Assembly: GCA_000004985.1 (NCBI GenBank)
Contig: GG738848.1
Reading direction: 5' to 3' (one strand)
DNA: 64,000 nucleotides
Source of the DNA: Naegleria gruberi
Taxonomy: Eukaryota
The translations under genes and the position numbers were made by a program. Below, piece by piece: positions 7,243 to 35,396 of the stretch (positions are counted from its first letter, which is position 1; each line of letters begins with the position of its first letter). The notes beneath the pieces were generated by a model, which was given only the letters and a program-made list of their open reading frames with translations, ran no database searches and was not told where the DNA came from.

Positions 7243-9196
7243 TTACTTCTTCCTCTTTACAAAGCTTACGGTTAGGTCGTTTTCAGTTGCCAATTGTTTT
7301 GGAGTTTGTGAGGTTTTATCCTTTATCTTTTCACTTGCTCCTGATTGATACAAGAATCCACACAATCTCTCGGCAGTATTCTTTTCTTTCAGTCTGCAGG
7401 CGCAGTGGAGTGGTGTTTCACCCTTATCATTTTGTACATTCATACTGTCCTTACTGAGGAGAGTTAAGAGTAAATTAACAGTCTTGATGTTTGCATTTTG
7501 TACTGCCAAGTGGAGTGGTGTGTTACCAGTAGCGTCTTGTTCCTTCATCAATGCTGCACATTGGGTTGGATTCAAAAATGCAAGTCTGTTAATGAGTGGA
7601 TCGGTTCCTGTAACAGCTGCTTGATGGAGAATGTTTTGTTTCTTATCATCTCTTGAAGCAGGACCAAATACAACAGCTGGATTCGTATTTGTGAGAATAT
7701 ATTCTACAATGTTAATGTGTCCACTTGCTGCTGCTCTCATAATTGGTGTTCTACCAAACTTGTCCTTAGAGTTTATCAAAACCTTATTACCTGTTTGAGA
7801 TGAAGCCATTCCTCCCGATGAATTAACTTCAGCAGATTCACTAACTAAAAATTTGACTGAATTCAATCGTCCAGCTTCGCAAGCCATGTGTAAAATTGTT
7901 GAACCGTCAGTTGTCTTGAAATTGTAATCTCCTTCAAATTGTCCACACATTACTTGGGCAGCTTTGAAACCATGTTGAGCACTTTGCAAATCTCCAATTT
8001 CCTCATCAATAAATGCCTTATTGAAAAGCAATTGCAAAGGACTCTTTCCAAACTTATCTCTAATGTTAATCTTTGATTTGAGTTGACAAAGAATTGAAAT
8101 AGCATCGTAACCTCTATGATTACAAGCATAGTGGAGCGGTGTCGATTCAGATTCATCTGGAGCCATTATGTTACACTTGTATTTTGAGACGAGTAAAAAG
8201 ATTAATGATGATCTGTTATATTTTGCACATTGATGGAGAAGGAATGATCTTGGTTTCTCCTTATCTCTTAATTTACGTACTTCTTTATCTGTCCAAGAGA
8301 AGAATTCTTTCATTTCCTCATTACCTTCCTCCTTCAGTTTGGCACACATTTCAAGATATTGAGTAATGAACTCGTCAAACATGTCAGAACAAGTGTGGTC
8401 ATCATAACCATCAATATTTTTAACAAACTTTCTCAAGACATAGTGATATAACATTGAAGGTTTGATTTGAGTCATATCAGAAACGTCTTCGAAAGGTTCA
8501 GTTTCGGTTTCATCCTCTGCAGTTTCTACAACATCAACTACAGCATCAACAAGAGCATCCAATCCAGGTGTTGTTGGAGTACTACATTCATCCAAATTGC
8601 TCAACTATTATATATCATATGCAAATTCAATTAAATTCAATCATCATTACCGTTAATTAATTAAACAATAACAATAAACTTACTGATGGATTTGAAGGAA
8701 TTGGAGGTAATGGTCTTTGTTGATAGGATAATGATTGGGGAGATTCACTACCTGCCAAAGCCGATGATGATGAATTACTAGATGAAGACAATGGAGTTTC
8801 CTCTTCTGTAGCAAAAACAGGTTCAGAATCTTCATAACCTTCATATTTCTCTTGATTTTCCAATGCAAAATCTGTCATTGAATGATTTCTTTGGAAAGGT
8901 AAAGTTGGTGTTGAATGACTACTCTCTAACGCTGTAGGTACTGTTGGACTTTCTCCAGTTGAAGATGAATCATCTGAATATCTATTCGAATTATGTGGAT
9001 TTGGAAGAGAGGCACGAACACCAGGATTATTCAAACCAGAAGAACTTGTACTCGATGAGGTTGATGGTTTTGTAGCAGTGCCAGAAGTTACCTTTTTCTT
9101 CTTTGGTTTTCCATTCATAAATGTTTGTTTAAATAAATTCCATGATGAAGTTGTTGTTGAAGTTGGATAATAATTAGGATCGTTATATCTCGACAT
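7243..9196 (-). CDS. Ankyrin-repeat protein of about 620 aa in 2 exons: 9196..8689 and about 8602..7243, with an intron of about 8688..8603.
   Basis: Exon 1 is Ser-rich with the PxxP motif RPLPPIPSNPS and ends at a gtaagttt donor. The acceptor aatatataatag|TTG joins in frame to ..SNLDECSTP.. Exon 2 contains at least 6 ANK repeats (TPLHYAC, STILHMACEAGRLNSVKFLV, RTPIMRAAASGHINIVEYIL, NTPLHLAVQNANIKTVNLLL, ETPLHCAC). Confidence 0.7.
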
Positions 9197-10429: not shown

Positions 10430-13400
10430 ATGAATTCTAGAAACATCTACAGCAACAATGCAGGGTCGGTTGTTGGCTCAGATAGTTCTCAAGAATCACA
10501 CAATACTTCCAGCACAAATTCTTCATCATTTCAACACAAAATACGAGTGGAAGTCTTTAACTTTTTCTTTGCCTCACAGAATGTATCTAAAAAGCAAGGA
10601 GGTAAACGATTTTTTGCAATCCTATTATTGTACATACTAATTTATTGGAGTTATATATGGCTTCCTGTATTAAGCCCACAAGATTTTCACTTTGGTGCTT
10701 GGGGTTCATGGATATTTTCAGTATTTAACTATACAACAAGTTTATCAATGGATTTACTTCCGTATGAAGGAGCAATTGCTGTGGCTAGTATAACCATGAC
10801 TTTTATTGCAATAACCGTTTGTATTACTATTATTACTCTGTGGGCTGTAAAGTCTACTTCTCAATACATTAAGAAGATTCAAATGATTCTTCACATCAAT
10901 GCCTACTTAATAATAGTACTCTCTGCTCCTATAATATTTATTTTGACTAGTTTTGTGGATTGTGATTATGGATACAACCCAAGAGAATCATTGATAAATT
11001 TTGTATCTCACCATGCTAATGGTACTTCAATAAGTTCAACAGCAACTCTCACACCCATGCTCAACAGATTTACAAGCATGGAATGTTATTCAACAAATAA
11101 CATCATCTTGATGGCTGTCACCCTCTCATTCATTGCCTTATATTTTGTATTGTGTGTATTGGCCAACTTTTTGGTACCAAATTCACATCCATTAAGCTTT
11201 GCCCCAATGATAACGGAGGGTTACATCTTTCCTATTGGTATGAGTTTGGGAAATTGCATTGGAATTTTGGTACATTTCCTCATACCAGCAGAGTATGCTT
11301 TTGTGAGGTCTATTGTACATTTAGTATATGGCATGTGCATGCTTGTTGTTATTATGAAGAGTTTGCCAATGTATAGAAGATATGAAAACACAATTGTATG
11401 TGGAGTGGTATGCGCAAGATTTGGCACATCAATAGGAAGTATCATTTCCTTTTTTGTAAATGCATCGAACACTGCTGAAATTGGTATTGGAATGTGGGCT
11501 TTAACAACAGGACTGGCTGTTGGATTGGGTTTAGTGGGAGCTGTATCTATGGATATTTATACTCGTTACGTAATTTACTTTATCAAAACTAGATATATCT
11601 TATCAGTAAGATCATCTGATAGATCACTTGAAAAGGAAGCAACAAATATTTATTTCAAATTGGAAGAGGATGGAACCATGTACAAAATGATGTTATATAT
11701 GAGATTTGTTTTAATGAGATATGCTAGAACAAAGACAGAGGAATTAGAAGACAAGTACGACTTGGTTGCATTGATTTCATTCATTAGAGGAATAAGCTCT
11801 CAAAAGTGCTTCAGCGATATTGAACTGTTATCTATGGCTGGAACACTTGTTGGTTATCTGATGGTTGATGAAATGCACTCTTCATATTTTGCTCAAGCTT
11901 TGCTAAAGAGGGCTCTTAAACAGCGACCAGATGTCTATAAAAGATTCCTCATTCATCAAAGATTAAGGGAAGTAGAATTAACAGGTGCTGATGATGTTAA
12001 GGGAAGTAGAACCGTGCTTGAGTTGAAATCTATAATGCTCAATATTCAAAAATATATTACTGAACTCACTTCGTTACATCGTCACTTCTGGAAGGAATTG
12101 ATGCAGGAAATTGTGAACTATGAAAAGGCAGAAAATATAGTTGCAAGATGCTCTGTTATCAACCATGAATTAGATTCCATGTTCGACAACATTTTATCAC
12201 TGTACTATAATGACAAAACTGTACTGAGAACTTATGCCAGCTATTTAGAAAATTTCAAATTCAACAAAGAGCTTGCCAATGAATATTACACAGAAGCATC
12301 AAGTTTGGAAGAAGAAGAATCAAGGATTCCTCTCGCTCAAAAAGGTAATAGAAGGACAAAGAACAAGGTATTCCCAGATGTTCAGGAAAGTGTGGACATA
12401 TCTAAAAAGCTAGGCCCAAAAGGTTTGGCCGTTGGTAGAAGTGTTGCATTTGAAAATTTGGAAACAGCAAGTTACTTGTCTAGCAATATGGATTTTAATG
12501 GGGTTGAGAATGCTAATGCTGATACAAAGAGAGAAATTGGGTTTAGAAATGCCCTTTCTCTTCCTGATTCACACACCATTCACATTATTACTTTCGTTTT
12601 CTTTATTGTATTTGCTTTCATATTATTAGTTGTTGGTTTGGTTATTGGCTTACAATTCTCCAAAGGTGTAACAATGAATGTTGTTAATGTAATTGAAGCT
12701 TGCTCTCCAATATGCGCCTTGAGCAATGTTTTACAATCTGTTCGAGCATTCCAAATGCATTCAATGTTCAACTCTACCCTTGGCTCTTCCAATATTCCAT
12801 TAACTTTAACATCAGAGTCCTACATTGATTTGGCAAATACTAAGATTTTAGTTTCCAAATTCAAAGATATTCTTGTAAATCTGCAACAAAAAGCCTACAA
12901 TGCCAAGTTCGATGGAACTGTTTATTCAAATTATCATGAGGTTTACAGTGAAATTTACATGCCAAACATTGGTGATGATTCAAAATTTTATAACCACACT
13001 ACAAAGATCAATGTGACAGTGACAGATGTAACCAATACCCTTATTAAGATTTCTGATCAAATTATCAATTCAAAGGAAAATGATATAACTAAAACACTGA
13101 ACAGTTATGGATTCATGTTCCTTTACATCAATCATGAATCAATTACAGACATATATGACAAATTTTGTAATATCTTTACTGATTCTGCCAAGACTGAGGC
13201 CCTAGCAATCAACAATATCTTCACGATATATATTTCTGTGTCTCTGGCCACGTTTATATTGTGTGGAGCACTTTACATGATATTCTCAAGAAAGGAATTG
13301 ACAGTTGTTAGGGAGCAAATCAAACTCATTCAACATAATGTTTCCAAGAATGAAATTGGTAAATTATTCCATGATTTGGGTAAAAAAGTTGGTGACGAGG

Positions 13401-15695
13401 TTTCAATTCACATATCTAGAAATTCTCTATTCAAACCAAAGAATGCATTCTTGATCGTTTCTGCCTTTTTAATTATTATTGTTTCAGTGAGTTGTGGAAT
13501 TTACCTTGACCAAACTTTGGGTAATTCAACATACAGTTTTGAATCATACATTACAATGGAGGATGGTTTCGATACAATGACTCACTTGCAGTATGTTTCC
13601 TTTATTGGAACAGAGTATTTTTCACATGTAACAACAAGTATTGTCGGTTCTGAAACGTTACAGCTACTTGATGATGATGAAGTAGAAGCAATGGAGGACA
13701 AATTGTCTTATCTTACAAAGCAATTGAGATATTTTTGGAATCTGTGTATGTATGGTTCTTCAGTTAAGGCATATGAAACTCTTGTGGTTGGTATGTTCCC
13801 AGAGACTGATCAAATGATTAGAGGTTCTGTGAATTGTACTGTTGAAAAGTTGTCTGAAACCTATATTGCTGGAGGTAACAATTCCACAACATGTGAAATG
13901 GGCATTGACTATATGGTACAAGATACCATTCTAATGATTTACAAAATGGTTCAAGATTTGGAAGGTGTTCATCATTCCAAGGGTAAAACATCAATATCCA
14001 CTCTGATTGATTTATTGAATGATTATTTTAAAATCAATTATATGACCAAGACCATTTCCTTAAAGTTAATTGAATTTTCCAACATTTTTGCTGTCAAGTC
14101 ATCAACTCCTCTATTGAACAACATGATTGGTCTGGCAGTGGTTGGATTTGCAAGTAACATAATTTGTGCCATATTAATGTTCCTCTTGTTGAATAATCAT
14201 AGAAGAAGTGCATTTGCAATGAGAGGTTTATTCAACTATCTTTCCATTGATACATTGGAGAATAATGAGAAATTGAGAAACTATGCTCTATACCATACTC
14301 TTGGAGACAATGTACTTTCTAAGCTCAAGACAAAGAAACAAACTCAAAACGGAGAAGATGCTAAAGTCAGATCCATTTTGAATGCTGCTGTTGATGGTGT
14401 TGTACTTTGCTCTAGCTCTGCAAGTATTGATATTTTCAATCCAGCAGCTCAGAGAATGTTTGGTAATCAACAAGAAGATGTTATTGGCAAATACATTTTC
14501 ACTCTATTTGCACCACAGCATCATGGAGAAATTAGAAAATCAATTGAGGGAATGAAACATACTGTATCAGCCAATGATTCAAAGGGAGAAACCTTTGAAA
14601 TTGAATGTATAAGAAAGAATAATACTACATTCCCAGCTACGGTCAATATTTTCGTAACAATTTTCGACAAGAAACCAATCATTACTTGTTTTATCAAGGA
14701 TATTACTTCAGAGAAGAAGGTATGTATTTAATCAAGTAGTTATTTTAATTTACTTTTTACAATAATAGCACAATTCATTACTTGCTGAGGAAAAGAAGAA
14801 TTCAGAGACCTTATTGTTGAATATTTTGCCTGGAGCTGTTGCTTCGAAACTTAAATCTGGAGCATCTCTTATTGCAGAAAGATTCCCAGATGTAACTTGT
14901 TTCTTCTCAGACATGGTTGGATTTACATCACTCTCTTCCAAGTTGACTCCCAATGATCTAGTCCAAATGCTTAATAGTATTGTTATGGGATTTGATGATT
15001 TGATGGATAAATATCACTTGGAAAAGATTAAGACTATTGGTGATGCTTACTTTGCAGCAGGTGGTTTGCATGATTTGAATGCTCAATCTGATCACCCGGA
15101 AAGAGTTTTGAGATTTGCTATTGATACCTTCTCTGTCATTAGAGCCTACAATTCTGAGCATAGAAAGGGAAGAGTAAATGAACAAATCAATATTAGAATT
15201 GGTATAAATACTGGACCAGTTGTAGCAGGTGTTATTGGTCGTAAGAAGTTTGCCTACGATTTATGGGGTGATTCAATTAATACAGCCTCAAGAATGGAAT
15301 CTAACAGCAAGCCTGGAAGAATTCAAATTTCACGTTCGACCTATGAGAGAGTTCACGATTTGGGATTCACCTTTGAAGAAAGAAAGATTGAAGTGAAAGG
15401 AAAAGGTTTAACTCAAACTTACTTACTAGATGCCAAACATCATCAATCTGCTGTACTAACAGAGGAGGAGCTTACTGTAACTATAACAACCAATCAAGAT
15501 CACTATCAAGATGCTGATATTGAGCTAGAAGAAAATGAGGAGAGTTACCTCGAATTGGAAAAAACACATTTAGAAAAACCAAGTTTGCCTGTTGGTCAAT
15601 CAATGACATTTGGAAGTGTCAGTGAAATGAGTGATGAGCCTAATCCAAAAACTATTCCAACGATTCCAACAATCACAACAACAGAATTTGAATAA
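10430..15695 (+). CDS. Large multi-pass membrane adenylyl cyclase of about 1740 aa. It has about 7 N-terminal TM helices, a roughly 600-aa loop region, about 4 further TM helices, a PAS domain and a class-III cyclase catalytic domain. Two exons: 10430..14719 and 14769..15695.
   Basis: The intron GTATGT..AATAG (14720..14768, 49 nt) joins ..DITSEKK to HNSLLAEEKKNSETLLLNILPGAV in frame. The PAS-like block is VDGVVLCSSSASIDIFNPAAQRMFGNQQEDVIGKYIF..FEIECIRKNNTTFPATV. The cyclase domain carries FSDMVGFT and KIKTIGDAY (both metal Asp residues), YDLWGDSINTASRMES (Asn and Arg present) and the specificity pair Lys (K-TIGDAY) and Asp (YDLWG). This pair predicts ATP specificity, i.e. an adenylyl cyclase. 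Confidence 0.8.
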
Positions 15696-15704
15696 ATATT
15701 AGGT

Positions 15705-16916
15705 TTATCTTCTTCTTGTATTTGCATTGGTAGGAGCAGTATTTGGTTGACGAGGAAGTTGAGGTGGTGTTGGAGTAGGTCCTACAACCTCTTCTTCTTC
15801 CTCTGATTCATCATCAACACCATGCATGTTTCTAAATTCTGTATGAGTTGCCTTGTCGACTGTTGAACCAGTCACTTCCGTCAAAAAGTTCAGTATTTGA
15901 TCCATATCTAACAACTCCTTTCTTAGCCTAGATCCATGTTGATAAATGTACAAGGGAGTTGCACTTTCCTTTGTTTTCATACCTAGTTCATCCTTATTCT
16001 TTTCAATATAAAATTGTTTTTCAAATTGTTGGATAAGTTTTTCAGGTAATCCAAACACAGAGTGATAATGTCCTTTTTCAATTCCAAGTTTTAACAGTAA
16101 TTTCCACATTTCCTCTTCATCCAAACGATTCTTTCTTATTTGAATAAGACAGACAATTACCATCAATAATCCTATTTGTGACTGTTCAAGTCCCTCCAAA
16201 CTAAATTCACGTCTCTTACGTTGAATACTGTTCGAACTTGCTTGTTTCTTTTCCTTTTTAGACAGGTCTAATAGTGGCAAACCATCAAGGTCTGCTGGTA
16301 ATAATCGAAGAATATATATTCCTGAAGACTTTTTCTTTTGTTTTTGAGTTTGTGTAGCTTGGGTTGACTTGGTGTTAACATCAGCATTTGTGTCATGCCT
16401 ATCTATTTCAACTAATTCAAATCCAAATATTTTGATGAATCTTTGTGAGGCTTTTCCGAGTAAATTATCGAGCAACCCCTTTCTCCCCTTGTATTTTTCA
16501 CCAAGAACCGTTGCATTCAAATCTTCTTTTTTAATTGGTAATTTGTTTGCATCTTTGAACAAACAAAATCTCATCAGACTTCCAATTAAATGTTCCTCTT
16601 CCTGTTCTAATAAATTAAAATTGGGAGGCTCTTGTGTTGCTTTTGGTTTTTTAGCTCGTGGATTACTTTGTGTGGTTTTTCTCTTCCTATTATTTGATGG
16701 TACAACTTCAGCCTCTTCTTCCGAGTCATATGAATCATCTTCCTGTTGTTGTGACGCAAAACGTTGTGATGATTGCGATTGTGATGGTGGTATTACTTTT
16801 CTCTTAGGTGCCTACAATACATTGATCATCATTCCAAATAACAAATCATCAAAAAATTCGTATGTGAGTTTGCAAATTAATTTGAAAACGTTTTCTCAAA
16901 ACAAATAACGTACCAT
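15705..16916 (-). CDS. MAGE-homology-domain protein (Nse3-like) of about 369 aa in 2 exons. Exon 1 is the ATG alone (16916..16914); the intron is 16913..16812; exon 2 is 16811..15705.
   Basis: The MAGE-domain core is ILRLLPADLDGLPLLD..GLLMVIVCLIQIRKNRLDEEEMWKLLLKLGI..HSVFGLPEKLIQQFEK. The ORF extends in frame upstream (APKRKVIPP..KRKTTQ basic N-terminus) to a tgtag acceptor. aaaaaaATGgtacgtt supplies the start codon followed directly by a donor. Confidence 0.6.
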
Positions 16917-16986: not shown

Positions 16987-17799
16987 ATGGCAAGCAATGT
17001 GCAAAAGCGTTTGGTTTTGATTGGCTTGGGAAATCCTGGTGATAAGTACAAGCTCACCCGACACAATATTGGTTGGATGATTGTTAATGAATTCATCAAG
17101 GAATATTCATTTCCGGCTTTGAGAGAATCTAACAATGATGCCATGTTGTCGCAGAGGGAAAATGTTTCGTTTTGGACACCTTCGGAATTGAGAAGAAGTT
17201 TTGTTGAGAAAGAAATTCAACGTTTGAGGAGTAAATGGTATCATGAAAAGAAGAGGGAATTAGGAGCTAATTTTGATGAAAATAATATTCAATATCCAAA
17301 CTTTGGAAATGCTGACATTGGTATGAAACAATTGGAGGATCGTGTGAAAAATATTATTGCTTATCCTACATTGGATGTTCACTGCATGTTACCATTATCT
17401 TTTATGAATTTGAGTGGTGGACCTGTCAAGAAATATTTGGATATGAATGGAATGAAAATTAATCAATTGGAGGATGTGAATAGAATTTTGGTTATTACCG
17501 ATGATGTTTCACAACCATTTGGAACATTTAAATTAAAAGCTAAGGGAACACATGGAGGACATAATGGACTCAGGGATATTGAAGCCAAGCTTGGAACTGA
17601 TAAATATCACAGACTTAAAGTTGGTATTGCTCCACTCAAAAATCCAGATATGGCCAAACAAGCAGGTCAAGATTTGGCCAGTTTTGTCTTGGGCAATTTC
17701 ACTCATGAAGAACAAAAAGACTTGCCAAAAGTCGTCTCTAGGGGTGTTGAAATTTTGAAAGACTACATTTCATTTGACTTCAAGTATGTCAAGACGTAA
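16987..17799 (+). CDS. Peptidyl-tRNA hydrolase, bacterial-type Pth1 family, likely organellar.
   Basis: 270-aa ORF with LIGLGNPGDKY..TRHNIGW and HGGHNGLRD motifs. The Pth fold carries a lineage-specific insertion. The start context is A-rich. Confidence 0.8.
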   Translation: MASNVQKRLVLIGLGNPGDKYKLTRHNIGWMIVNEFIKEYSFPALRESNNDAMLSQRENVSFWTPSELRRSFVEKEIQRLRSKWYHEKKRELGANFDENNIQYPNFGNADIGMKQLEDRVKNIIAYPTLDVHCMLPLSFMNLSGGPVKKYLDMNGMKINQLEDVNRILVITDDVSQPFGTFKLKAKGTHGGHNGLRDIEAKLGTDKYHRLKVGIAPLKNPDMAKQAGQDLASFVLGNFTHEEQKDLPKVVSRGVEILKDYISFDFKYVKT

Positions 17800-17843: not shown

Positions 17844-19288
17844 ATGCCTCCACGAAAAGCTTCCACACCTACATCAGCAGAGAAGAGAAAACGAGAAAAA
17901 CTCTCTTCGGGATTGAATTTGTCAGAGGAAGAAGCGAAAATGCTTGATCTTGCCATATCGGGTGGTATTAGCAACACATCACCATCTGGTAATCCAGTTA
18001 CACCAACAAAAAAGAGAAAATCAGAATCAACTAGCGAAAGAGCCTTGTTGGAAAGAAAGATGGTAGAGACTGCCAATGAATTAACCTCTCCAACAGCTTT
18101 ATCTTCTCCATCTTCTTCGGAGAAACGAGTTTTCAAAACCCCAACCCGATTGAACAAAAAAGTTGAGACTCCCTCCAGTAGTACTTCATCTAGTAGCACC
18201 ACCACTGCTTCTGCAAAATCTTCTCCAAAATCTTCTCCTCGTACTACACCAACTAAAACAACAACTCCAACAAGAACCACTTCAACTCCAACCACTCCAT
18301 CATTTAGTAGTGATGGATTTTATAGTGAGGAGCAAACTAGAGGTGGTGAGGATACAAATCAATTGAATGCTGTAGCACTGTTTGTGGAAAATGCTGCAGA
18401 TTTTCAATTTTCAGATACTCATGTAGCTTTTTTAAAGCTCAGACAGGAAATTCAAAACTCAATTCTGAGTTGTAAACATTTGATGAAATTTATTTTTCCT
18501 CCAATAATTTTAAAGCATTTACTTTACAATGAAAATGTAATTAGTGGACAAACACCAACTCAAATAGAACAAACTATTAATCAAATGATTGATACAAATG
18601 AAATAAGAAAATTCTACATTGACAGAAGTATTTACAGAGATATATTTGGATTTGTTTTTATGGAGGATTATATTAAAACTATGTGGATTCAACACGAGGT
18701 AAGTTAGTGGTAGTAGTTCAGCAGAAAATATTAAACCATTTAACCAAGACCTATATTAATAATTTAGAAAATACTTTGAACGAAGAGGATAAATCAAGAT
18801 TACCAGTATTTCAGGAGGAAAGAAAGAAAGAAATTAAAAAATTGCTCAGTGCTTCTAGAATTAATGAACTGAAAGATATTGTCAAGAAATTCTGTGAGCT
18901 TGTATTACCAATGATAAAAGAACCTTTCATTGAGAAGAGAGATTTAATCGATTTACTTTTCGAAGAAAATGATTCAAAGCAAATCACTCATGATGAAGCC
19001 ATAACACACCTCATGTCACTAGGTGCCCTAACTATAAGAGATATTGAAAGTTTCTTCTTCTCCATACCAAACCTCTCTCAATTCATGTATTATCTACACA
19101 ATGGAAGAAAAGAAATATTGAATGTATTGAGGAGAAAGCAATTCAAAGAAATAATGGTAAACACCTTGCTTCAAAAAAATATTAGAAATACCATCTTCAA
19201 TCCAATGTTTCACATAAGGGATATGATTGGGGACGGAGATGTCACCGTAATCGACATCAATGGACAAGCTATGCTAAGGCTAAAATAG
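17844..19288 (+). CDS. Hypothetical nuclear protein with a Ser/Thr/Pro-rich, NLS-bearing N-terminus. Two exons: 17844..18699 and about 18723..19288.
   Basis: The GTAAGT..TTCAG intron at 18700..18722 region links ..MWIQHE to QKILNHLTK in frame. The N-terminus MPPRKASTPTSAEKRKREK is basic. No confident domain assignment. Confidence 0.45.
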
Positions 19289-19650: not shown

Positions 19651-22600
19651 ATGCCTTCGCCATCTCTTCTTGATAATCCTTTTCAAGCTGTGCAAAGCAC
19701 ATCTGCTTTGTACACAATCAATATTAGATCTTTCTTTCTTCAAAAGAGAGATCGAATTGTTTTCTTGTCAGTTGTGATCATACTACTAACTCTTATACTT
19801 CCGCTATATCATGATATTTATTATGAGAATAGTTTACTTTCAAATACAATATTTTGCACAAATAATTTAAATAATGAGAGGTCAAATCAAATATTTTCGA
19901 CTGATGAATGGTCTGATAGCATGCACTGCAATTCTTATGTTGCAAACCATCCATTCATCAAGAATTGTCAATTCTCTGACTATTTTCCTCAATTTTTAAG
20001 AAGCATTCCAAAGATTTATATAATTTTTGCTGAATACGCGATCAAATTTATAATTTACATGTTTCTGTTGATGATATATTGGAGATTTCATAATGTAATG
20101 AACAAGCTCTTCAAGTTTTTATTACTTAATGAAACAATAGAAATGGAAAATGAGGCAAGGCAGCAAAGAACCTCAGGGGAATCACATCATGTGTACCTGC
20201 TGTGTTCTGAAGTTTCTAGATGTTTGTGTTCATCAATTTGGATAATGAGTGTACAAATGGTGTTGGGAAGAAATGCTCCAGCTTTTTTATGGATTTTAGT
20301 ATATAGTTGTCTTGGTTCGGTTGCTCTAGAAATGAGTAAGAAGCCAAGTATCGATTCCAAACAACAAACACATGTGACGCCTCCACCTGAACGTTTGCCC
20401 ATGTACAGAAAAATATTTAACTTTTTAAGGAAACTAATAATAGGCACACATGCGACAACATACGTTACTATTACAGTAATGGTGATATGTGAGCTCTTTG
20501 TAATGATTTACTATTTGAAATATTCAGCTTCATTTTGCTCATGCGTTGTAGTTTCTATTCTTATTGTACAAGTAATGACTATTGAATTGATAGATTTTAT
20601 GAGAAATCACTCTATTGAGTTTGTACAACAACGAGAGATGCAAAGTATGAAAAAAGTAGCCAATTTATATAAGAATCTATACATGACAGCACCTGACACA
20701 TTTCTCTCATGTGTATGCGATAGTGATGATGTATTAGTAAGACCATCCGATACAAAGGTGGAATCAGCATACTTGTTTCTTCAGTCATTCAAGATTGTCC
20801 AATACAACAACACAGCAATAGATACACTTTCATGTGCTTCCTCACTCTCCATTAATCCTGATAATTATTATAATCATTCAGATCATGAAGTGACTCTTGG
20901 TGATGTGATTATTAATCCTTACAAAGAATCTGATGAGGTAATGAGAACAGCAGCACTTGGAGGAAATTTACTCAGTGTCAGCGATTTACAAAACTCTGCT
21001 GTGTTGAAGCTTGGTGAAGTGTTGCAGGATGTTATTCAATCACCTTTTGACCAAACATCTAAGCAAACACCAACTCACGAGAGAATCCTCCCCTTGTTTG
21101 TTAAAGGAAAAAATCAAACAATACTAACATGCTCTTTGAGTATATCAAAGATTTTGCTCTATGATATCGACTCTGCAGGTGAGGGAATGGTCTTTTTTAA
21201 TATCATTCTTCACGACATTACTCAAAAATACAAACTATTGGATGAAATCAATGTAGAAAAGGAGAAAGCTATTGAGGCCAACAAAGCAAAGAGTCAATTT
21301 TTAGCACAAATGTCGCACGAATTGCGAACTCCTCTTCATGGTATTATTGGCCTTACTGATGTGTTGCTATCAAAATGTAAAGAAGAAACAGAAAATGAGA
21401 AAAACTTGGACACGTTTGATAAGGCTGTAAATCTCAATAATATTTGCAAGGATAGCGCCACTATTGCATTTGTGGAAAGTGAAAAATCTCACTCACCAGT
21501 ATTGGAACAACAAACGAACATTATTCAGACAATAAGGTATAGTGGTAACATTTTACTAGGCCTTATTAATGACTTATTGGATATTTGCAAGATTGAATCC
21601 TCGAAAATCAAGTTGGAAAATAAGAAGTTCAATTTGAGACGTGCTATTGACCAAATTCATTGTGGAATGTTTCAATTACAAGCTAGAGAAAAATCATTAG
21701 AGTTCAATTTACAGCTCGGTGAGAATGTTCCAACTTTTATAGTTGGCGACGAGTATCGTCTTGTTCAAATCCTTATCAACCTGGTATACAATGCCATTAA
21801 ATTCACCGATATGGGATCAGTTTCTCTCATTATTGAGTCAAAACCACCATCTGAAGACAACGTTTATGAGCTTACATTTAAGGTAACTGATACTGGAATC
21901 GGAATTTCGCAACATGATTTGAAGAGATTGTTTCAACCCTTCTCTCAAATATTGAGCACTTCACACAAGCAGACCAAGATTAATGAAGGTACTGGCTTGG
22001 GTCTTTACATTTGCAAACAACTTGTCGAAATGATGAGAGGTACCTTGTGTGTTGATAGTGAGGAAGGCGTGGGAAGCACTTTCTGGTTTACCATTAAATT
22101 CCATGGTGAGTTTATTCCTGGCTTTGAAGAAACAACCCGCTCCAAGATACTTTCTAAGAATGTATCGTCTAAATCACTGCTATCCCTAGAAAATTGCAAG
22201 AAAAATGAGCTAACAACAGTTAGAACACCAACTATTGAGGATTTTGAATCAAGTTTACCAAAATTGAAAATTCTAATAGTTGAGGATAATGCAATCAATA
22301 GAATTGTTTTGATTAATATGTTGAAGAAAATTGGTTGTACAAATATTGCAGTGGCTCAAGATGGTTTGGAGGGTGTTCAACAATTTGAAGAATTTAAAAA
22401 GACCAATCAACTTTTTGATATAATTTTTGTTGACATTTTCATGCCTAGATTGGATGGTTATGGAACTGTAAGAAGAATACTGGAACTAGAATCCAACGAT
22501 CCTTCCGATCATCACTCGATTCTAGTAGCCCTGACAGCAAATGGGTTTGAGGAAACCAGAAATTATTGTCTAGAGCATGGATTTGATGTGTTTATGAGCA

Positions 22601-22680
22601 AGCCATTCTCAATTACTGATTTAGAGCAGTGTGTAACAAATTGCATGACCAGAATCCATCCAAGTAGTATAATTCCGTAA
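19651..22680 (+). CDS. Hybrid sensor histidine kinase with a C-terminal receiver (response-regulator) domain and an N-terminal multi-TM sensor region.
   Basis: 1009-aa ORF. The HisKA H-box is SQFLAQMSHELRTPLHGI. The HATPase N and G boxes are LINLVYNAIKFTD and GTGLGLYICKQLVEMMRGTLCVDSEEGVGSTFWF. The receiver is KILIVEDNAINRIVL..FDIIFVDIFMPRLDGYG..SKPF, with the phospho-accepting Asp in FVDIFMP. Hydrophobic segments are present in the first roughly 300 aa. Confidence 0.85.
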   Translation: MPSPSLLDNPFQAVQSTSALYTINIRSFFLQKRDRIVFLSVVIILLTLILPLYHDIYYENSLLSNTIFCTNNLNNERSNQIFSTDEWSDSMHCNSYVANHPFIKNCQFSDYFPQFLRSIPKIYIIFAEYAIKFIIYMFLLMIYWRFHNVMNKLFKFLLLNETIEMENEARQQRTSGESHHVYLLCSEVSRCLCSSIWIMSVQMVLGRNAPAFLWILVYSCLGSVALEMSKKPSIDSKQQTHVTPPPERLPMYRKIFNFLRKLIIGTHATTYVTITVMVICELFVMIYYLKYSASFCSCVVVSILIVQVMTIELIDFMRNHSIEFVQQREMQSMKKVANLYKNLYMTAPDTFLSCVCDSDDVLVRPSDTKVESAYLFLQSFKIVQYNNTAIDTLSCASSLSINPDNYYNHSDHEVTLGDVIINPYKESDEVMRTAALGGNLLSVSDLQNSAVLKLGEVLQDVIQSPFDQTSKQTPTHERILPLFVKGKNQTILTCSLSISKILLYDIDSAGEGMVFFNIILHDITQKYKLLDEINVEKEKAIEANKAKSQFLAQMSHELRTPLHGIIGLTDVLLSKCKEETENEKNLDTFDKAVNLNNICKDSATIAFVESEKSHSPVLEQQTNIIQTIRYSGNILLGLINDLLDICKIESSKIKLENKKFNLRRAIDQIHCGMFQLQAREKSLEFNLQLGENVPTFIVGDEYRLVQILINLVYNAIKFTDMGSVSLIIESKPPSEDNVYELTFKVTDTGIGISQHDLKRLFQPFSQILSTSHKQTKINEGTGLGLYICKQLVEMMRGTLCVDSEEGVGSTFWFTIKFHGEFIPGFEETTRSKILSKNVSSKSLLSLENCKKNELTTVRTPTIEDFESSLPKLKILIVEDNAINRIVLINMLKKIGCTNIAVAQDGLEGVQQFEEFKKTNQLFDIIFVDIFMPRLDGYGTVRRILELESNDPSDHHSILVALTANGFEETRNYCLEHGFDVFMSKPFSITDLEQCVTNCMTRIHPSSIIP

Positions 22681-31715: not shown

Positions 31716-34700
31716 TTACATGTCTTCCCAATCGTCGTCGTCATCCATATCATCATATGGATTACCAATATCCAATCCATGAGCTGTATTGCTCAAAACA
31801 AGTACTAATTGGAAAACGTACTTGTTAAAGAATTTTCCTGGTTCTCTCTCAATGACTGTTGGTTGGTGGAATGTTGGTTCAAACAAATTATAGTCTAGTT
31901 CTGAATCAATATATGGTGTATCTTCAAGGTCCATTTCGATTTCAGATTTCCTCTCATATTTTCCAATTTGAACGCTATCCATATCGAAGGATTCATTTGC
32001 AAATAAATATTTAACTTTGTAGAGATCTGTTGGAATGAATTGATCAGTGAGATCAACTGCAAACAATCCACTCTTTCTTGATTTTGGCTTAATGTAAAAG
32101 TGAACATTATTCCCAAATGCATGAATGGTATCAGATGAAAAACAATCATCCACTAGAGTTTCTAATGGTGTAAGGATGGTTATTGTTTCGTGGTGAATTG
32201 GTCTTTCCTTTGAAATTTGTCTAGAGAGCCAAGGATGCTTGTTACTTAAATAATTGAGAGGATTATTTGGAAAGGTAGTTAATGGGTGGACTTGTTTCAT
32301 CTTCTTTTCAAGTAATTTAATACAAATAATAGTTCTATAATTGAACTCAGTCAATGATTTTTCATAAGGATCCTTGTTATAATAGACGTTATCTGAAACA
32401 AAATCATCTTTGAACTTGAACTTGTGGGTTTTCACATAATAATATGATGGATCAAAATTGAAATTCATAAACAAAACTTTGACTTGCAAATGGTCCAATT
32501 GTAAGCTGATTTCATCTGGATTCGTAGAATGTACTGAATCCAAATGTAATGAGGTTCTCACCTCTCCAAGATACTCTCCATTCTGAATACTGAGATACCA
32601 CTTGAAACCAAAGGCTTCAAAAGTATGAGACTTGATCTTTTTAAAGAGCTCCACGTTGAAACCATGGGAAATATCAATACAATCCACATATGTATTCTTA
32701 TCTGCCCATGCAGGATCCACTGCTATGGAAACCCTCTCCCTTGTTGGAATTGATACATCTAGTGGATCAACTTTACGGAAAGCTTCCTTTTCTTTCTTCA
32801 CTTTAGCGGAAAGATTAGTGAAAGGATTATAAATATGTTGAATGCTACTGAACTTTTCAAAGTATTGTGCCATAACTGCAGGGCAATTAATGTTAAAACA
32901 GTATGCAGATGTGATGGCATGACAAAATTCAGAAAATGATGGAGTACTAGTTATTTCCATGGAAAAAGAAATGGTGGAAAGGATTAGAAACAAATCTGGG
33001 AAGGAGAATATTTGTAATAAACAGTCTTTTTCTCTGACACATCTTTCCATGAACTTGGTAACTGTTTTGACTAATTGTGGATTAACCATGAATAAAGCTT
33101 GTGGCAGTGAGCTAGAAATCTTGGATATTGTATCCAAGTCATTCAAATCCAGTAAAATAGACAGTATTGCTAGTACTATTCCATAACTTGCTCCCTTGAT
33201 AAATGGTTCAATTGAATTTGAGCAGCAAAACTGTAATCTAGCTATTTGCTCTTGGCTGAGTATTCCTTCATTCAATCTAGCAAAAACAGAATTGACAAAT
33301 TTTAACATGTCATTTTGGTGTAGAGGCATAAAGTCACTATTCGTTGATAGCAATAGGTAATAGAAAAGCCAAAACTCATTGTCACGCTCAAGACGTAATC
33401 CTTTCTCTTTCAAAAGAGTCAAAACAGAGCAAGCACAAAGGTTCAATTCTATCAGTTTTCTCTCCTTCATCAATTTGGTAAAGTGAGTTGTGTGTAATTC
33501 TTGGAAAAGAGTATCTATTGACTTGTACGTTTCCATCATTAGCCTGCTTTTAAGTTCCTCATTGACTGTGGAATAGGCTTTTTCAAAATCAAATTTTCTT
33601 TCCTTAATTTTAGATGAGAACATGTGGAAATTTCTTTCGTATTCTAGGAGAGATATTTCATTACAATCCTTAAATTCTCTACAGTCTATTACCATTAAAT
33701 TTCTCAAATTTTCCATTGAGGTGAAGTGGTGAGTGATAGAATTGGTTAAAAACTTGGATCCACCAATTAACAATTCTTCTATTGGAGAATCCTTTGTACA
33801 AATAGTGGCAACTGTTTCATTTTGCAAACATTCCATCTTGAGCTTGAGTATTCTTAGATTTTTGAGTGCCAAAATATTATTGATAAAACCAGTATAACTC
33901 GGATCAACAATGTGGGAAAAGACTTCCAAATTATTTAAGGAGAGTGGCAGGACAATATCATTTGGGAGGCAAACATTCAAAGAAAGTTCCAAGTTTTTGA
34001 GCGTCTTGAATTGTGTAAGATCCATATCGCTATCATAGACCATTTTGAGAGATTTGATATTTTGCTTATTAGGAAGTAAATTTACAATATTACAAGTAAA
34101 TAATTTTCCAGAAACTGTTCTCAAGTTTGGTAAATGAATCTTGGAGCTGAGCGTAGCCGACAAGTTGTTATTTTCTGTCTCAAAATCCAAATTCAATGTT
34201 TCAATATTTGAGCATCTCTTTAAGAATGAGAAATCGAAATATTCTTCTTCTTCTCCTTGTAAATTGATTTCCTTGATGGCGTTGTCAACAATAATAGGTA
34301 CCAAAGAACCAGCACCACTATTCAAAGTACATGTAAGAGATTCCAAATGTTTCAAAGTTGAATTATTTGAAAGGGAATGGAGACATTTTGATGTGAACTT
34401 GACTTCCTCCACATCGAACACCAATTTCAGTTTCTTCAAGTTCTTTAAACAAACAATAGAATTTAACAATATATCATTCATTTCTAGCCCAGTACAATAC
34501 AAGCCTAGATAGGTCAACTTTTCTGAATAGATACCAAAGGGATTAATTGCTGATTTTGTATTGATACTATAAGGCAAAGAAATGGAAGATATATTGAGAG
34601 TAATTCCTTTTTTTTTGAAAATTGAAAAGAAAGAGCTTGACATGGTAGTGCATGATTCATCAAGAGTAACATGAAATGATGTTAATTTGGGCAATGATTC

Positions 34701-35396
34701 AATTAGTTCTATAGCAACATCATCTGATACTCCTTTAACACGTAAATCAGTTAAATTGGGACATTGCTTGCCTATACTTGCTACAAAGGTATCTGGTAGC
34801 TCGTAATCTAAAACTAATGTCTCCAAAGAAGGTGGAAATTTAAAGGTATCAAACTCAATATCTACGGCATCCTTTCCTATCAGTACTAATTTCTTCAGAT
34901 TTTCAAATGCTTCCATAGTCATATTCTGAAGTTCAAAGTCAATATCTCTAATCAACATCTCCTCAATAGTGTACAATGCTGGAATTTTCTTCTCTGCAAT
35001 GTCCTGTATAAAGTTGCCACACAGAGTATCATACCGTGCCAGATCTAACTTTTTAAGTTTACCACTCAAACTCTCCAACATTTTAAAAAGTGAAAAATCA
35101 TCCAGCTGTTGACAAAACCCATCATCATCAAGACTTTTCTCTGCTCCAATCTCTGTCAAATTGGCCAACTTGCAAAGAAAATGTTTGTAAATATTCTCAA
35201 ATCTGCCACATGCAATTCCGTATGGAATAGAGTAGCTTGTCTTGTATTTGATCCAGTAATCCCAAACCAATTTGTTAAAATATTGATTAGTTGTTTTAAG
35301 AGAAATTAGTGCCTTGTGATGAACAAAAGGAAGAAAGTGGTCAATTAGAATTTCTTCCGGAACACAAGCAAGTTGATGATCATCTCTTGATTGCAT
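31716..35396 (-). CDS. Large F-box/leucine-rich-repeat protein of 1226 aa.
   Basis: N-terminal F-box VPEEILIDHFLPFVHHKALISLKTTNQYFNKLVWDYW. Many LRR-like segments follow (LKNLKKLKLVF, LKHLESLTCTL, LPNLRTVSGKL, LKNLRILKLKM...). The C-terminus is acidic, ending DDMDDDDDWEDM. Confidence 0.6.
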   Translation of the reverse strand: MQSRDDHQLACVPEEILIDHFLPFVHHKALISLKTTNQYFNKLVWDYWIKYKTSYSIPYGIACGRFENIYKHFLCKLANLTEIGAEKSLDDDGFCQQLDDFSLFKMLESLSGKLKKLDLARYDTLCGNFIQDIAEKKIPALYTIEEMLIRDIDFELQNMTMEAFENLKKLVLIGKDAVDIEFDTFKFPPSLETLVLDYELPDTFVASIGKQCPNLTDLRVKGVSDDVAIELIESLPKLTSFHVTLDESCTTMSSSFFSIFKKKGITLNISSISLPYSINTKSAINPFGIYSEKLTYLGLYCTGLEMNDILLNSIVCLKNLKKLKLVFDVEEVKFTSKCLHSLSNNSTLKHLESLTCTLNSGAGSLVPIIVDNAIKEINLQGEEEEYFDFSFLKRCSNIETLNLDFETENNNLSATLSSKIHLPNLRTVSGKLFTCNIVNLLPNKQNIKSLKMVYDSDMDLTQFKTLKNLELSLNVCLPNDIVLPLSLNNLEVFSHIVDPSYTGFINNILALKNLRILKLKMECLQNETVATICTKDSPIEELLIGGSKFLTNSITHHFTSMENLRNLMVIDCREFKDCNEISLLEYERNFHMFSSKIKERKFDFEKAYSTVNEELKSRLMMETYKSIDTLFQELHTTHFTKLMKERKLIELNLCACSVLTLLKEKGLRLERDNEFWLFYYLLLSTNSDFMPLHQNDMLKFVNSVFARLNEGILSQEQIARLQFCCSNSIEPFIKGASYGIVLAILSILLDLNDLDTISKISSSLPQALFMVNPQLVKTVTKFMERCVREKDCLLQIFSFPDLFLILSTISFSMEITSTPSFSEFCHAITSAYCFNINCPAVMAQYFEKFSSIQHIYNPFTNLSAKVKKEKEAFRKVDPLDVSIPTRERVSIAVDPAWADKNTYVDCIDISHGFNVELFKKIKSHTFEAFGFKWYLSIQNGEYLGEVRTSLHLDSVHSTNPDEISLQLDHLQVKVLFMNFNFDPSYYYVKTHKFKFKDDFVSDNVYYNKDPYEKSLTEFNYRTIICIKLLEKKMKQVHPLTTFPNNPLNYLSNKHPWLSRQISKERPIHHETITILTPLETLVDDCFSSDTIHAFGNNVHFYIKPKSRKSGLFAVDLTDQFIPTDLYKVKYLFANESFDMDSVQIGKYERKSEIEMDLEDTPYIDSELDYNLFEPTFHQPTVIEREPGKFFNKYVFQLVLVLSNTAHGLDIGNPYDDMDDDDDWEDM

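What the first reader, a model, noticed from the sequence alone, without database searches (positions are those of the whole stretch)
10430..15695. Unusual architecture: 7-TM block, second TM block, PAS and a catalytically complete class-III adenylyl cyclase in one polypeptide
The cyclase domain keeps both metal-binding Asp residues (FSDMVGFT; TIGDAY). It keeps the Asn/Arg transition-state pair (NTASRM). It keeps the Lys/Asp substrate-specifying pair (K-TIGDAY; YDLWG). So it should be an ATP-specific homodimeric cyclase. It is preceded by a PAS sensor, and further upstream by about 11 predicted TM helices split into two clusters by a roughly 300-aa soluble loop. This is neither the 2x6-TM ACA topology nor the single-TM CHASE ACG topology known from Dictyostelium. 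It is also not a rhodopsin-cyclase. It may be a new receptor-cyclase type that senses a small ligand via PAS.
Basis: partly seen in the sequence, partly recalled or inferred. Interest (0 to 1): 0.7.

Follow-up and report, generated by a model that had tools for sequence, protein, structure and literature searches.

The report
Naegleria TmcB-like PAS adenylyl cyclase
This is a real gene of the amoeboflagellate Naegleria gruberi for a 12-helix membrane protein that ends in a PAS domain and a complete cAMP-making enzyme; it belongs to a large, catalogued but untested receptor-cyclase family of Naegleria and its relatives.

Summary
Window 10430-15695 (+) is one gene: exon 10430-14719, a 49-nt GT..AG intron, exon 14769-15695. 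It encodes 1738 aa, identical to an NCBI 'predicted protein [Naegleria gruberi]'.

- The organism is Naegleria, not a dictyostelid.
- The first membrane block has 8 helices, not 7, so the total is 12.
- The 335-aa 'soluble loop' is a TPR_TmcB domain.
- The second block is 4 helices carrying two ~190-aa extracellular helical bundles that resemble bacterial four-helix-bundle/NIT sensors.

PAS (PAS_9, E 5e-18) and a class IIIa cyclase (E 1.6e-55) are confirmed, with all seven catalytic and ATP-specifying residues.

It is not a one-off. About 34 cluster representatives from three Naegleria species, Willaertia, Acrasis and Pharyngomonas carry PAS and cyclase after the same membrane module. One N. 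gruberi paralogue is already named 'membrane bound adenylate/guanylate cyclase with PAS domain'. None is characterised.

The N-terminal module is homologous to Dictyostelium TmcB, which is genetically linked to cAMP signalling.

Most likely it is a homodimeric receptor adenylyl cyclase, with variable extracellular sensors signalling through TM12, PAS and a fixed-length helix to a conserved catalytic dimer. This is a new variant of a known kind, of moderate interest.

The parts
10430..14719 (+). Exon 1, codons 1-1430: N-terminal tail, 8-TM block, TPR_TmcB domain, 4-TM sensor block, PAS, and the start of the signalling helix
   Evidence: ORF list, translation, spliced product identical to the NCBI model
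14720..14768 (+). 49-nt intron, GTATGT...AATAG, phase 0
   Evidence: Read from the DNA. Removing it joins the two ORFs in frame and reproduces the database protein exactly
14769..15695 (+). Exon 2, codons 1431-1738 plus the stop: rest of the signalling helix/CTE, the cyclase domain and an acidic C-terminal tail
10607..11557 (+). N-terminal 8-TM block (aa 60-376), N-in/C-in, homologous to the membrane block of Dictyostelium TmcB-family proteins. A Cys pair in the third outside loop is widely conserved (C219 nearly invariant) and the motif L-P-x-Y-R-R-x-E-N has invariant P313 and N320
   Evidence: Hydropathy; AF2 helices 58-80, 112-142, 147-175, 222-248, 266-284, 287-311, 317-343, 349-395; K+R in short loops 19 inside versus 2 outside; the family HMM hits a D. 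firmibasis TmcB/TmcC protein at E 3e-15; invariant columns
11627..12340 (+). Cytosolic all-helical TPR-like domain (aa 400-637), containing Pfam TPR_TmcB (aa 529-632)
12575..14197 (+). 4-TM sensor block (aa 716-1256): TM9 716-745, extracellular domain 1 746-928, TM10 929-953, cytosolic loop 954-1000, TM11 1001-1028, extracellular domain 2 1029-1229, TM12 1230-1256
14345..14707 (+). Cytosolic PAS domain (aa 1306-1426) ending in the D-I-T motif
14708..14882 (+). Signalling helix plus cyclase transducer element (aa 1427-1468, interrupted by the intron): SEKKHNSLLAEEKKNSETLLLNILPGAVASKLKSGASLIAER
   Evidence: Aligns with the helical segment that precedes the C2 catalytic domain of AC8 and AC9. There are no internal indels from the DIT motif to the LKxG motif in 34 family members, apart from one 1-residue insertion (P0076) just before the conserved Gly; mean identity is 63%
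14874..15431 (+). Class IIIa cyclase catalytic domain (aa 1466-1651): D1478, K1518, D1522, D1594, N1601, R1605, K1642
   Evidence: Pfam PF00211 E 1.6e-55; PDB matches to AC8, AC9, AC5 and mycobacterial Cya at E 1e-58 to 1e-47; residue table

Best explanation
The gene encodes a receptor-type, homodimeric class IIIa adenylyl cyclase of Naegleria gruberi, one paralogue of a gene family found across the Heterolobosea.

Shown:
- Gene structure: a single polypeptide of 1738 aa.
- 12 TM helices with the N-terminus, the TPR domain, PAS and the cyclase on the cytosolic side, and two ~190-aa helical domains outside.
- A complete set of catalytic and ATP-specifying residues.
- A PAS-to-cyclase helix of essentially fixed length.
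- Homology of the first ~640 aa to the TmcB family.

Inferred:
- Two chains dimerise through the cyclase domains and the coiled-coil, as every single-domain class III cyclase must in order to form two symmetric active sites.
- An external signal is read by the divergent extracellular four-helix-bundle-like domains flanked by TM9-TM12.
- The resulting shift of TM12 passes through the membrane-proximal PAS domain and the rigid signalling helix/cyclase transducer element, re-registers the catalytic dimer, and switches cAMP synthesis.
- PAS acts mainly as a transducer or dimerisation joint and perhaps as a second, intracellular input.
- The 8-TM plus TPR (TmcB-like) module is an accessory regulatory or scaffolding module whose biochemical role is unknown.
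For: Gene model and identity.

Domains.

Catalytic residues aligned with AC8/AC9 C1 and C2. The D-K-D-D-N-R-K signature is complete in this protein and in 20 further family members; most of the rest are truncated models.

Topology: hydropathy; AF2 models at pLDDT 81 and 86; positive-inside count of 19 versus 2 in short loops and sequon enrichment outside.

Conservation gradient typical of a receptor repertoire: extracellular domains 20%, 8-TM block 25%, TPR 30%, PAS 36%, signalling helix 63%, cyclase 64% mean pairwise identity.

Linker length is essentially invariant across 34 members. The concept of signalling through the S-helix and cyclase transducer element comes from PMC7384201.

The fusion is real and old. 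The same architecture occurs in N. gruberi (at least 10 paralogues), N. fowleri, N. lovaniensis, Willaertia magna and Acrasis kona, and in a complete transcript-derived ORF of Pharyngomonas kirbyi.

Link to cAMP: Dictyostelium tmcB is described as a regulator of the cAMP signalling pathway in sexual development (Muramoto 2005, as cited in PMC8516963 and PMC12750705).
Against: There is no biochemical datum for any family member. Four-helix bundles are a generic fold, and neither Pfam nor any sequence search links the extracellular domains to 4HB_MCP or NIT, so the sensor analogy rests on a predicted structure. The two extracellular domains are not detectably related to each other (hhalign probability 5%). 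The role of the large, conserved 8-TM plus TPR module is unexplained. It has conserved polar residues in or near the membrane (R330 in TM7, invariant N320) that could point to transport or ligand binding there instead. Dimerisation was not modelled. The divergence of the extracellular domains could reflect weak constraint rather than diversified ligand specificity.
Confidence: 0.6

Rival explanations
1. One reading: the cytosolic PAS domain is the primary sensor. It binds a small ligand, cofactor or gas and controls the cyclase, while the membrane part is only an anchor or localisation device.
For: PAS sits directly before the signalling helix, as in many bacterial PAS-regulated enzymes. The closest solved sequences are the heme-binding O2 sensors FixL and EcDOS (E 1.5e-7 to 2e-4). 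In one of the printed alignments a His of this protein (QHHGE) falls on the proximal heme His of R. meliloti FixL.
Against: That His is not conserved. The closest N. fowleri homologue found (44% identity over aa 10-1177; orthology not tested) has EKQEE and other members have NKQDT, SNRDK and so on. The alternative alignment to B. japonicum FixL puts an Arg at the heme His position. PAS is more conserved (36%) than the extracellular domains (20%) across paralogues, which fits a common transducer better than a diversified ligand pocket. A 1250-aa, 12-TM module with conserved extracellular cysteines is excessive for an anchor.
Confidence: 0.2
2. The TmcB-like 8-TM module is a channel or transporter, and the cyclase is coupled to, or reports on, its transport cycle. 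This would be analogous to the K+-channel adenylyl cyclases of Paramecium and Plasmodium or the P4-ATPase guanylyl cyclases of alveolates.
For: The 8-TM block has conserved polar or charged positions in or near the membrane (ARxGxSIG in TM7, invariant P313 and N320). It is conserved well beyond Heterolobosea, in Dictyostelium and Cyanophora. Fusions of transporters with cyclases are an established theme in protists (PMC13466520, listed; otherwise my own background knowledge).
Confidence: 0.12
3. Annotation artefact: two neighbouring genes (a TmcB-like membrane protein and a PAS-cyclase) are wrongly merged, or the cyclase exon is not spliced to the upstream ORF.
For: The cyclase lies behind an intron, and no transcript evidence for this particular gene was available here.
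Against: The membrane blocks and PAS lie in one uninterrupted 1430-codon ORF. The intron is 49 nt with GT..AG ends and keeps the frame. The PAS-to-cyclase helix that crosses the junction matches the family consensus residue for residue. The same architecture recurs in more than 30 proteins of six species, including a complete ORF from a Pharyngomonas transcript.
Confidence: 0.02

Closest known systems
Paralogues and orthologues in Heterolobosea, e.g. N. gruberi XP_002674931 'membrane bound adenylate/guanylate cyclase with PAS domain', N. fowleri XP_044563997, Acrasis kona KAL0481386 'adenylate cyclase'
   Same: In most members the order of modules is the same: multi-TM block, TPR_TmcB, 4-TM block with two large outside loops, PAS, fixed-length helix, class III cyclase with the D-K-D-D-N-R-K signature. 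Some models are N-terminally incomplete, including XP_002674931 and the Acrasis protein.
   Different: Only 20-44% identical over the membrane part. The extracellular domains are the most divergent regions. None has been studied experimentally as far as the held literature shows.
Dictyostelium TmcB/TmcC family ('tiny macrocysts protein B'; Pfam PF25474)
   Same: It shares a homologous N-terminal multi-TM block and cytosolic TPR domain, followed by four more widely spaced TM helices. tmcB is genetically tied to cAMP signalling.
   Different: The Dictyostelium and Cyanophora proteins looked up here lack PAS and cyclase. Their distal 4-TM region is not detected by the heterolobosean 4-TM-block HMM at E <= 1e-3. 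Their biochemical function is unknown.
Mycobacterial Rv1625c/Cya and mammalian membrane adenylyl cyclases (class IIIa)
   Same: These are the best PDB sequence matches (E 1e-58 to 1e-47). The catalytic residues are the same and there is a helical 'transducer' segment before the catalytic domain. Like Rv1625c, this protein has one catalytic domain per chain and so presumably forms a homodimer.
   Different: Those enzymes have 6 TM helices (or 2x6) with minimal outside loops and no PAS. This protein has 8+4 TM helices, a TPR domain, two large outside domains and a PAS domain.
Bacterial four-helix-bundle and NIT sensor proteins (chemoreceptor ligand-binding domains such as PcaY and PilJ, sensor kinase Adeh_2942, NasR)
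   Same: The predicted fold and the membrane topology of the outside domains match: helices continuous with the flanking TM helices, followed by a cytosolic PAS and a signalling helix.
   Different: There is no sequence-level relationship. This protein is eukaryotic, has two such domains in tandem within one chain, has extra beta-hairpin and Cys-rich insertions, and has a cyclase output.
Other protist receptor cyclases: Dictyostelium ACG, trypanosomatid receptor ACs, rhodopsin-guanylyl cyclases, K+-channel ACs, P4-ATPase GCs
   Same: The general principle is shared: a class III cyclase fused to a membrane sensor or transport module.

Membership tests
Class III nucleotidyl cyclase (Pfam PF00211), subclass IIIa | Match to the family profile above the curated threshold | tested here: met
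   188 bits against a cut-off of 21.9, E 1.6e-55, covering profile positions 3-182 of 183
Class III nucleotidyl cyclase (Pfam PF00211), subclass IIIa | Two metal-binding Asp, the transition-state Asn and Arg, and the triphosphate-binding Lys, all in one domain (homodimer type) | tested here: met
   D1478, D1522, N1601, R1605 and K1642 align with the corresponding residues of AC8/AC9 C1 and C2
Class III nucleotidyl cyclase (Pfam PF00211), subclass IIIa | Lys/Asp pair that selects ATP (guanylyl cyclases have Glu/Cys) | tested here: met
   K1518 (KTIGDAY) and D1594 (YDLWG); K in 32 of 34 and D in 27 of 34 family members, gaps excluded
Class III nucleotidyl cyclase (Pfam PF00211), subclass IIIa | Helical cyclase transducer element directly before the catalytic domain | tested here: met
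   AEEKKNSETLLLNILPGAVASKLK aligns with the helix preceding C2 of AC8 and AC9. It is 63% conserved and of essentially fixed length in the family
Class III nucleotidyl cyclase (Pfam PF00211), subclass IIIa | Measured cAMP synthesis | not testable with these tools
   Needs an enzyme assay
PAS domain | Profile match and the five-stranded PAS fold | tested here: met
Heme-binding PAS (FixL/EcDOS type) | Conserved proximal His on the F-alpha helix | tested here: not met
   A His is present in this protein in one alignment only. The position is not conserved in the family, including the closest N. fowleri homologue
TmcB/TmcC family (Pfam PF25474 TPR_TmcB) | TPR_TmcB domain above the curated threshold | tested here: met
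   59.3 bits against a cut-off of 27, E 4.6e-16, aa 529-632
TmcB/TmcC family (Pfam PF25474 TPR_TmcB) | Homologous multi-TM block N-terminal to the TPR domain | tested here: met
   The HMM of the heterolobosean 8-TM block hits a D. firmibasis TmcB/TmcC protein (E 3e-15, aa 53-341), an unnamed JGI protein (E 6e-16) and Cyanophora (E 1.5e-7). Shared invariant P313 and N320
TmcB/TmcC family (Pfam PF25474 TPR_TmcB) | Homology of the distal 4-TM region | tested here: inconclusive
   The Dictyostelium and Cyanophora proteins have four further TM helices spaced about 200 aa apart, but the 4-TM-block HMM does not reach them at E <= 1e-3
ACA/mammalian-type membrane adenylyl cyclase | Two 6-TM cassettes and two complementary catalytic domains (C1, C2) in one chain | tested here: not met
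   One catalytic domain only and an 8+4 TM layout
ACG/trypanosomatid receptor cyclase | Single TM helix between one extracellular sensor domain and the cyclase | tested here: not met
   12 TM helices. No CHASE or periplasmic-binding-protein domain in Pfam at E <= 1
Rhodopsin-cyclase / GPCR | 7-TM (or 8-TM) microbial rhodopsin or GPCR fold | tested here: not met
4HB_MCP / NIT extracellular sensor domains | Four-helix-bundle sensor between two TM helices, recognisable by profile | tested here: inconclusive

The most novel reading that the evidence does not exclude
The fusion works as a 'Rosetta stone' for the TmcB family, which is widespread in eukaryotes and has no assigned biochemical function. 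On this reading, TmcB-like membrane proteins are sensor or regulator modules of adenylyl cyclases. In Heterolobosea they are wired in cis to a PAS-cyclase, with bacterial-chemoreceptor-like extracellular bundles as ligand sensors. In Dictyostelium and other lineages they act in trans on cAMP signalling. The ten-plus divergent paralogues per Naegleria genome would then be a chemosensory receptor repertoire that couples directly to cAMP without G proteins.
Probability: 0.3. Interest if true: 0.6.

Novelty: new variant of a known kind. Interest (0 to 1): 0.4.

Why it matters
Naegleria genomes carry on the order of a hundred cyclases (at least 81 in the pangenome study, PMC9928731), yet no signal is known for any membrane-bound one. 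This gene shows what a large subset looks like: variable extracellular helical sensors, a PAS joint, a fixed helix and a conserved adenylyl cyclase.

This gives a concrete hypothesis for how these amoebae, including the pathogen N. fowleri, which has close homologues, read their surroundings without G-protein coupling.

It also gives the first mechanistic hint for TmcB, a Dictyostelium gene known only genetically as a regulator of cAMP signalling. In another eukaryotic supergroup, its homologue is physically fused to the enzyme that makes cAMP.

The PAS-helix-cyclase cassette is compact and could be tested or re-used as a signalling module.

Tried and rejected
1. Word-index homology search. 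The full-length query returned only 6 hits, the only family member among them being the query itself. A 10-sequence profile of the TmcB-like part returned 1 hit. The candidate filter seems to be swamped by hydrophobic words. The exhaustive HMMER search was what revealed the family.

2. Heme/O2-sensor idea. It was raised by the FixL/EcDOS matches and rejected as a family feature because the candidate proximal His is not conserved.

3. Internal duplication of the two TM-bundle-TM units. hhalign probability was 5%, so this is not supported.

4. Paralogues inside the window. tblastn of the protein against the window found only the gene itself.

6. Literature. Fritz-Laylin 2010 (the N. gruberi genome paper) is not held. 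Searches on Naegleria cyclases, PAS and TmcB found only gene counts and the Dictyostelium tmcB citation, with no description of this architecture.

7. Distribution of the fusion outside Heterolobosea. Among the 133 hits, every named protein carrying PAS and cyclase is heterolobosean.


Full report
**What is in the sequence**

The window is about 34% G+C. On the + strand an ORF runs from the ATG at 10430 to a stop at 14731, and a second ORF in a compatible frame ends at 15695. The DNA between them shows GAAGAAG|GTATGT...AATAG|CACAAT. This is a 49-nt intron (14720-14768) bounded by GT and AG and lying exactly between codons.

Splicing 10430-14719 to 14769-15695 gives a 1738-aa protein without internal stops. 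That protein is 100% identical over its whole length to an NCBI/UniProt 'predicted protein [Naegleria gruberi]' on a 712,659-bp contig. The gene model is the public one.

**Domains**

Pfam finds:
- Guanylate_cyc at aa 1466-1651 (E 1.6e-55)
- PAS_9 at aa 1322-1426 (E 5.2e-18)

The C-terminal 308 residues match the catalytic domains of mammalian AC8, AC9 and AC5 and of mycobacterial Cya at E 1e-58 to 1e-47. The printed alignments place:
- FSDMVGFT on the C1 metal-binding Asp
- TIGDAY on the second metal-binding Asp
- K of KTIGDAY and D of YDLWG on the adenine-specifying Lys/Asp of C2
- NTASRM on the transition-state Asn/Arg
- KGKG on the triphosphate-binding Lys

The segment AEEKKNSETLLLNILPGAVASKLK aligns with the helix that precedes C2. 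This is the 'handle' or cyclase transducer element through which class III cyclases are thought to receive signals (PMC7384201).

**Membrane topology**

Hydropathy gives eight peaks between aa 60 and 376 and four more at 713-749, 925-953, 999-1031 and 1228-1256.

An AlphaFold2 model of aa 1-720, built on 39 family sequences, has mean pLDDT 81 and pTM 0.76. It shows eight TM helices (58-80, 112-142, 147-175, 222-248, 266-284, 287-311, 317-343, 349-395), then an all-helical repeat domain (400-637) and a disordered stretch (642-695).

A second model, of aa 700-1430, has pLDDT 86 and pTM 0.69. It shows four very long helices that cross the membrane and continue into two helical bundles, followed by a PAS fold.

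With an N-in orientation, short loops carry 19 Lys+Arg inside against 2 outside. N-glycosylation sequons are three times denser in the predicted outside segments.

The protein therefore has 12 TM helices, arranged as 8 + 4. The N-terminus, TPR domain, PAS and cyclase are cytosolic. Two domains of 183 and 201 aa (746-928 and 1029-1229) lie outside and carry nearly invariant cysteines. The '7-TM block' of the finding's title is one helix short, and nothing links it to GPCRs or rhodopsins:
- no such Pfam hit
- no Foldseek hit at E <= 0.001
- a family-profile search of PDB sequences finds nothing below E 0.46

**It is a family**

An exhaustive HMMER search of 1.84 billion cluster representatives with aa 1-1200 found 133 proteins, 58 of them below E 1e-30.

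I mapped five pieces of the query onto these hits. About 34 representatives of roughly 840-2430 aa carry PAS and cyclase after the same membrane module. Most have all five pieces in the same order, and some models are truncated.

Look-ups place them in:
- N. gruberi: at least ten paralogues, including XP_002670998, XP_002672713, XP_002669010, XP_002683621, XP_002673642, XP_002682792, XP_002673480, XP_002674931 and XP_002674868
- N. fowleri
- N. lovaniensis
- Willaertia magna
- Acrasis kona, annotated 'adenylate cyclase'
- Pharyngomonas kirbyi, as a complete transcript-derived ORF

One N. gruberi paralogue already bears the name 'membrane bound adenylate/guanylate cyclase with PAS domain'. The architecture is thus old within Heterolobosea, expressed as one transcript, and already visible in public annotation. 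None of the papers I could search describes it beyond counting cyclases.

The catalytic signature D-K-D-D-N-R-K is complete in 21 of the 34 members compared. Most exceptions are truncated models.

**Relation to TmcB**

An HMM of the heterolobosean 8-TM block detects:
- a Dictyostelium firmibasis 'TmcB/TmcC TPR repeats domain-containing protein' (E 3e-15)
- an unnamed JGI protein (E 6e-16)
- a Cyanophora paradoxa protein (E 1.5e-7)

A joint alignment keeps P313, N320, F553 and W554 invariant. These proteins lack PAS and cyclase. They have four further, widely spaced TM helices, but the heterolobosean 4-TM-block HMM does not reach them.

Dictyostelium tmcB is cited as acting in, or regulating, the cAMP signalling pathway during sexual development (Muramoto et al. 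2005, as cited in PMC8516963 and PMC12750705). So a protein family linked genetically to cAMP in Amoebozoa is covalently joined to an adenylyl cyclase in Heterolobosea.

**Sensor candidates**

The topology matches that of bacterial sensors, with bundle helices continuous with the flanking TM helices, then PAS, then a signalling helix. This similarity rests on a predicted model of a generic fold and has no sequence support, so I treat it as an analogy. The two outside domains are not detectably related to each other.

Mean pairwise identity across 14 full-length members rises from the outside inwards:

| Region | Mean pairwise identity |
|---|---|
| Extracellular domains | 20% |
| 8-TM block | 25% |
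| TPR domain | 30% |
| PAS | 36% |
| Signalling helix | 63% |
| Cyclase | 64% |

The stretch from the PAS D-I-T motif to the catalytic domain has no indels in the 34 sequences, apart from one single-residue insertion in one paralogue. This is the pattern expected of a receptor repertoire with diversified input and a common, geometry-sensitive output.

**The PAS domain**

Its closest solved relatives by sequence are the heme PAS domains of FixL and EcDOS. In one alignment a His of this protein (QHHGE) falls on the proximal heme ligand. The other alignment shifts the register, and the His is absent from the closest N. fowleri homologue and most paralogues. I therefore reject a FixL-like heme site as a family property. 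Whether this PAS binds anything is open.

**Most likely mechanism**

The protein is most likely a homodimeric receptor adenylyl cyclase.

Shown:
- one catalytic domain per chain, with all residues needed for both halves of a symmetric active site
- ATP-type specificity residues
- a 12-TM topology with large outside domains
- a fixed-length helical connection from PAS to the cyclase

Inferred:
- ligand binding at the outside bundles displaces TM12
- PAS and the coiled-coil/transducer element convert this displacement into a change of the catalytic dimer interface
- the TmcB-like 8-TM plus TPR module adds regulation, partner binding or localisation

Rivals:
- PAS is the true sensor (0.2).
- The 8-TM block is a transporter or channel coupled to the cyclase (0.12).
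- The gene model is a merger artefact (0.02).

**Comparison with known systems and verdict**

The protein is a bona fide class IIIa cyclase and a bona fide PAS protein, and it carries a bona fide TmcB-type N-terminal module. It is not an ACA-type, ACG-type, trypanosomatid-type, rhodopsin-type, channel-type or P-type-ATPase-type cyclase.

As a sequence it is already in the databases with these domains attached, and its family was noticed by the genome annotators. As a mechanism it is uncharacterised.

I rate it a new variant of a known kind (receptor class III cyclases) and of moderate interest (0.4). The main value is the TmcB-cyclase link and the chemoreceptor-like outside domains, both of which are testable.

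Noticed in passing
window 19651-22680 (+): A 1009-aa ORF encodes a hybrid histidine kinase (HisKA, HATPase_c and a receiver domain) 4 kb downstream of the cyclase gene. It is a second sensory signalling gene in the neighbourhood. Its N-terminal ~540 aa have no Pfam match.
   Followed up: partly
window 15705-16574 (-): A MAGE-homology-domain ORF (E 1e-32) converges on the cyclase gene. Its lowest coordinate, 15705, lies only 9 nt beyond the cyclase stop codon at 15693-15695, so the two 3' ends must nearly touch or overlap.
   Followed up: no
window 40468-46308 (-): A 1946-aa ORF with 29% Glu and 10% Gln, made of degenerate E/Q/P/V-rich low-complexity sequence, ends in a short leucine-rich-repeat-like C-terminus. 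It explains the strong AT skew (-0.44 to -0.47) and raised G+C (0.38-0.43) at 42-46 kb. It has no Pfam match.
   Followed up: partly
window 49772-52510 (-): A class I-type phosphoinositide 3-kinase with Ras-binding, C2, PIK and kinase domains.
   Followed up: no
window 31716-35396 (-) and 17844-18707 (+): Long ORFs (1226 aa and 287 aa) without any Pfam match at E <= 0.001. I did not examine them further.
   Followed up: no
window 7243-8604 (-) and 16987-17799 (+): An ankyrin-repeat protein and a peptidyl-tRNA hydrolase. These are ordinary neighbours with no evident functional link to the cyclase.
   Followed up: no
protein aa 1349-1350, window 14474-14479: This paralogue has a His-His pair on the PAS F-alpha helix, where FixL carries its heme ligand in one alignment. 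The pair is absent from the closest N. fowleri homologue and from other paralogues. It could be a paralogue-specific cofactor site or chance.
   Followed up: partly
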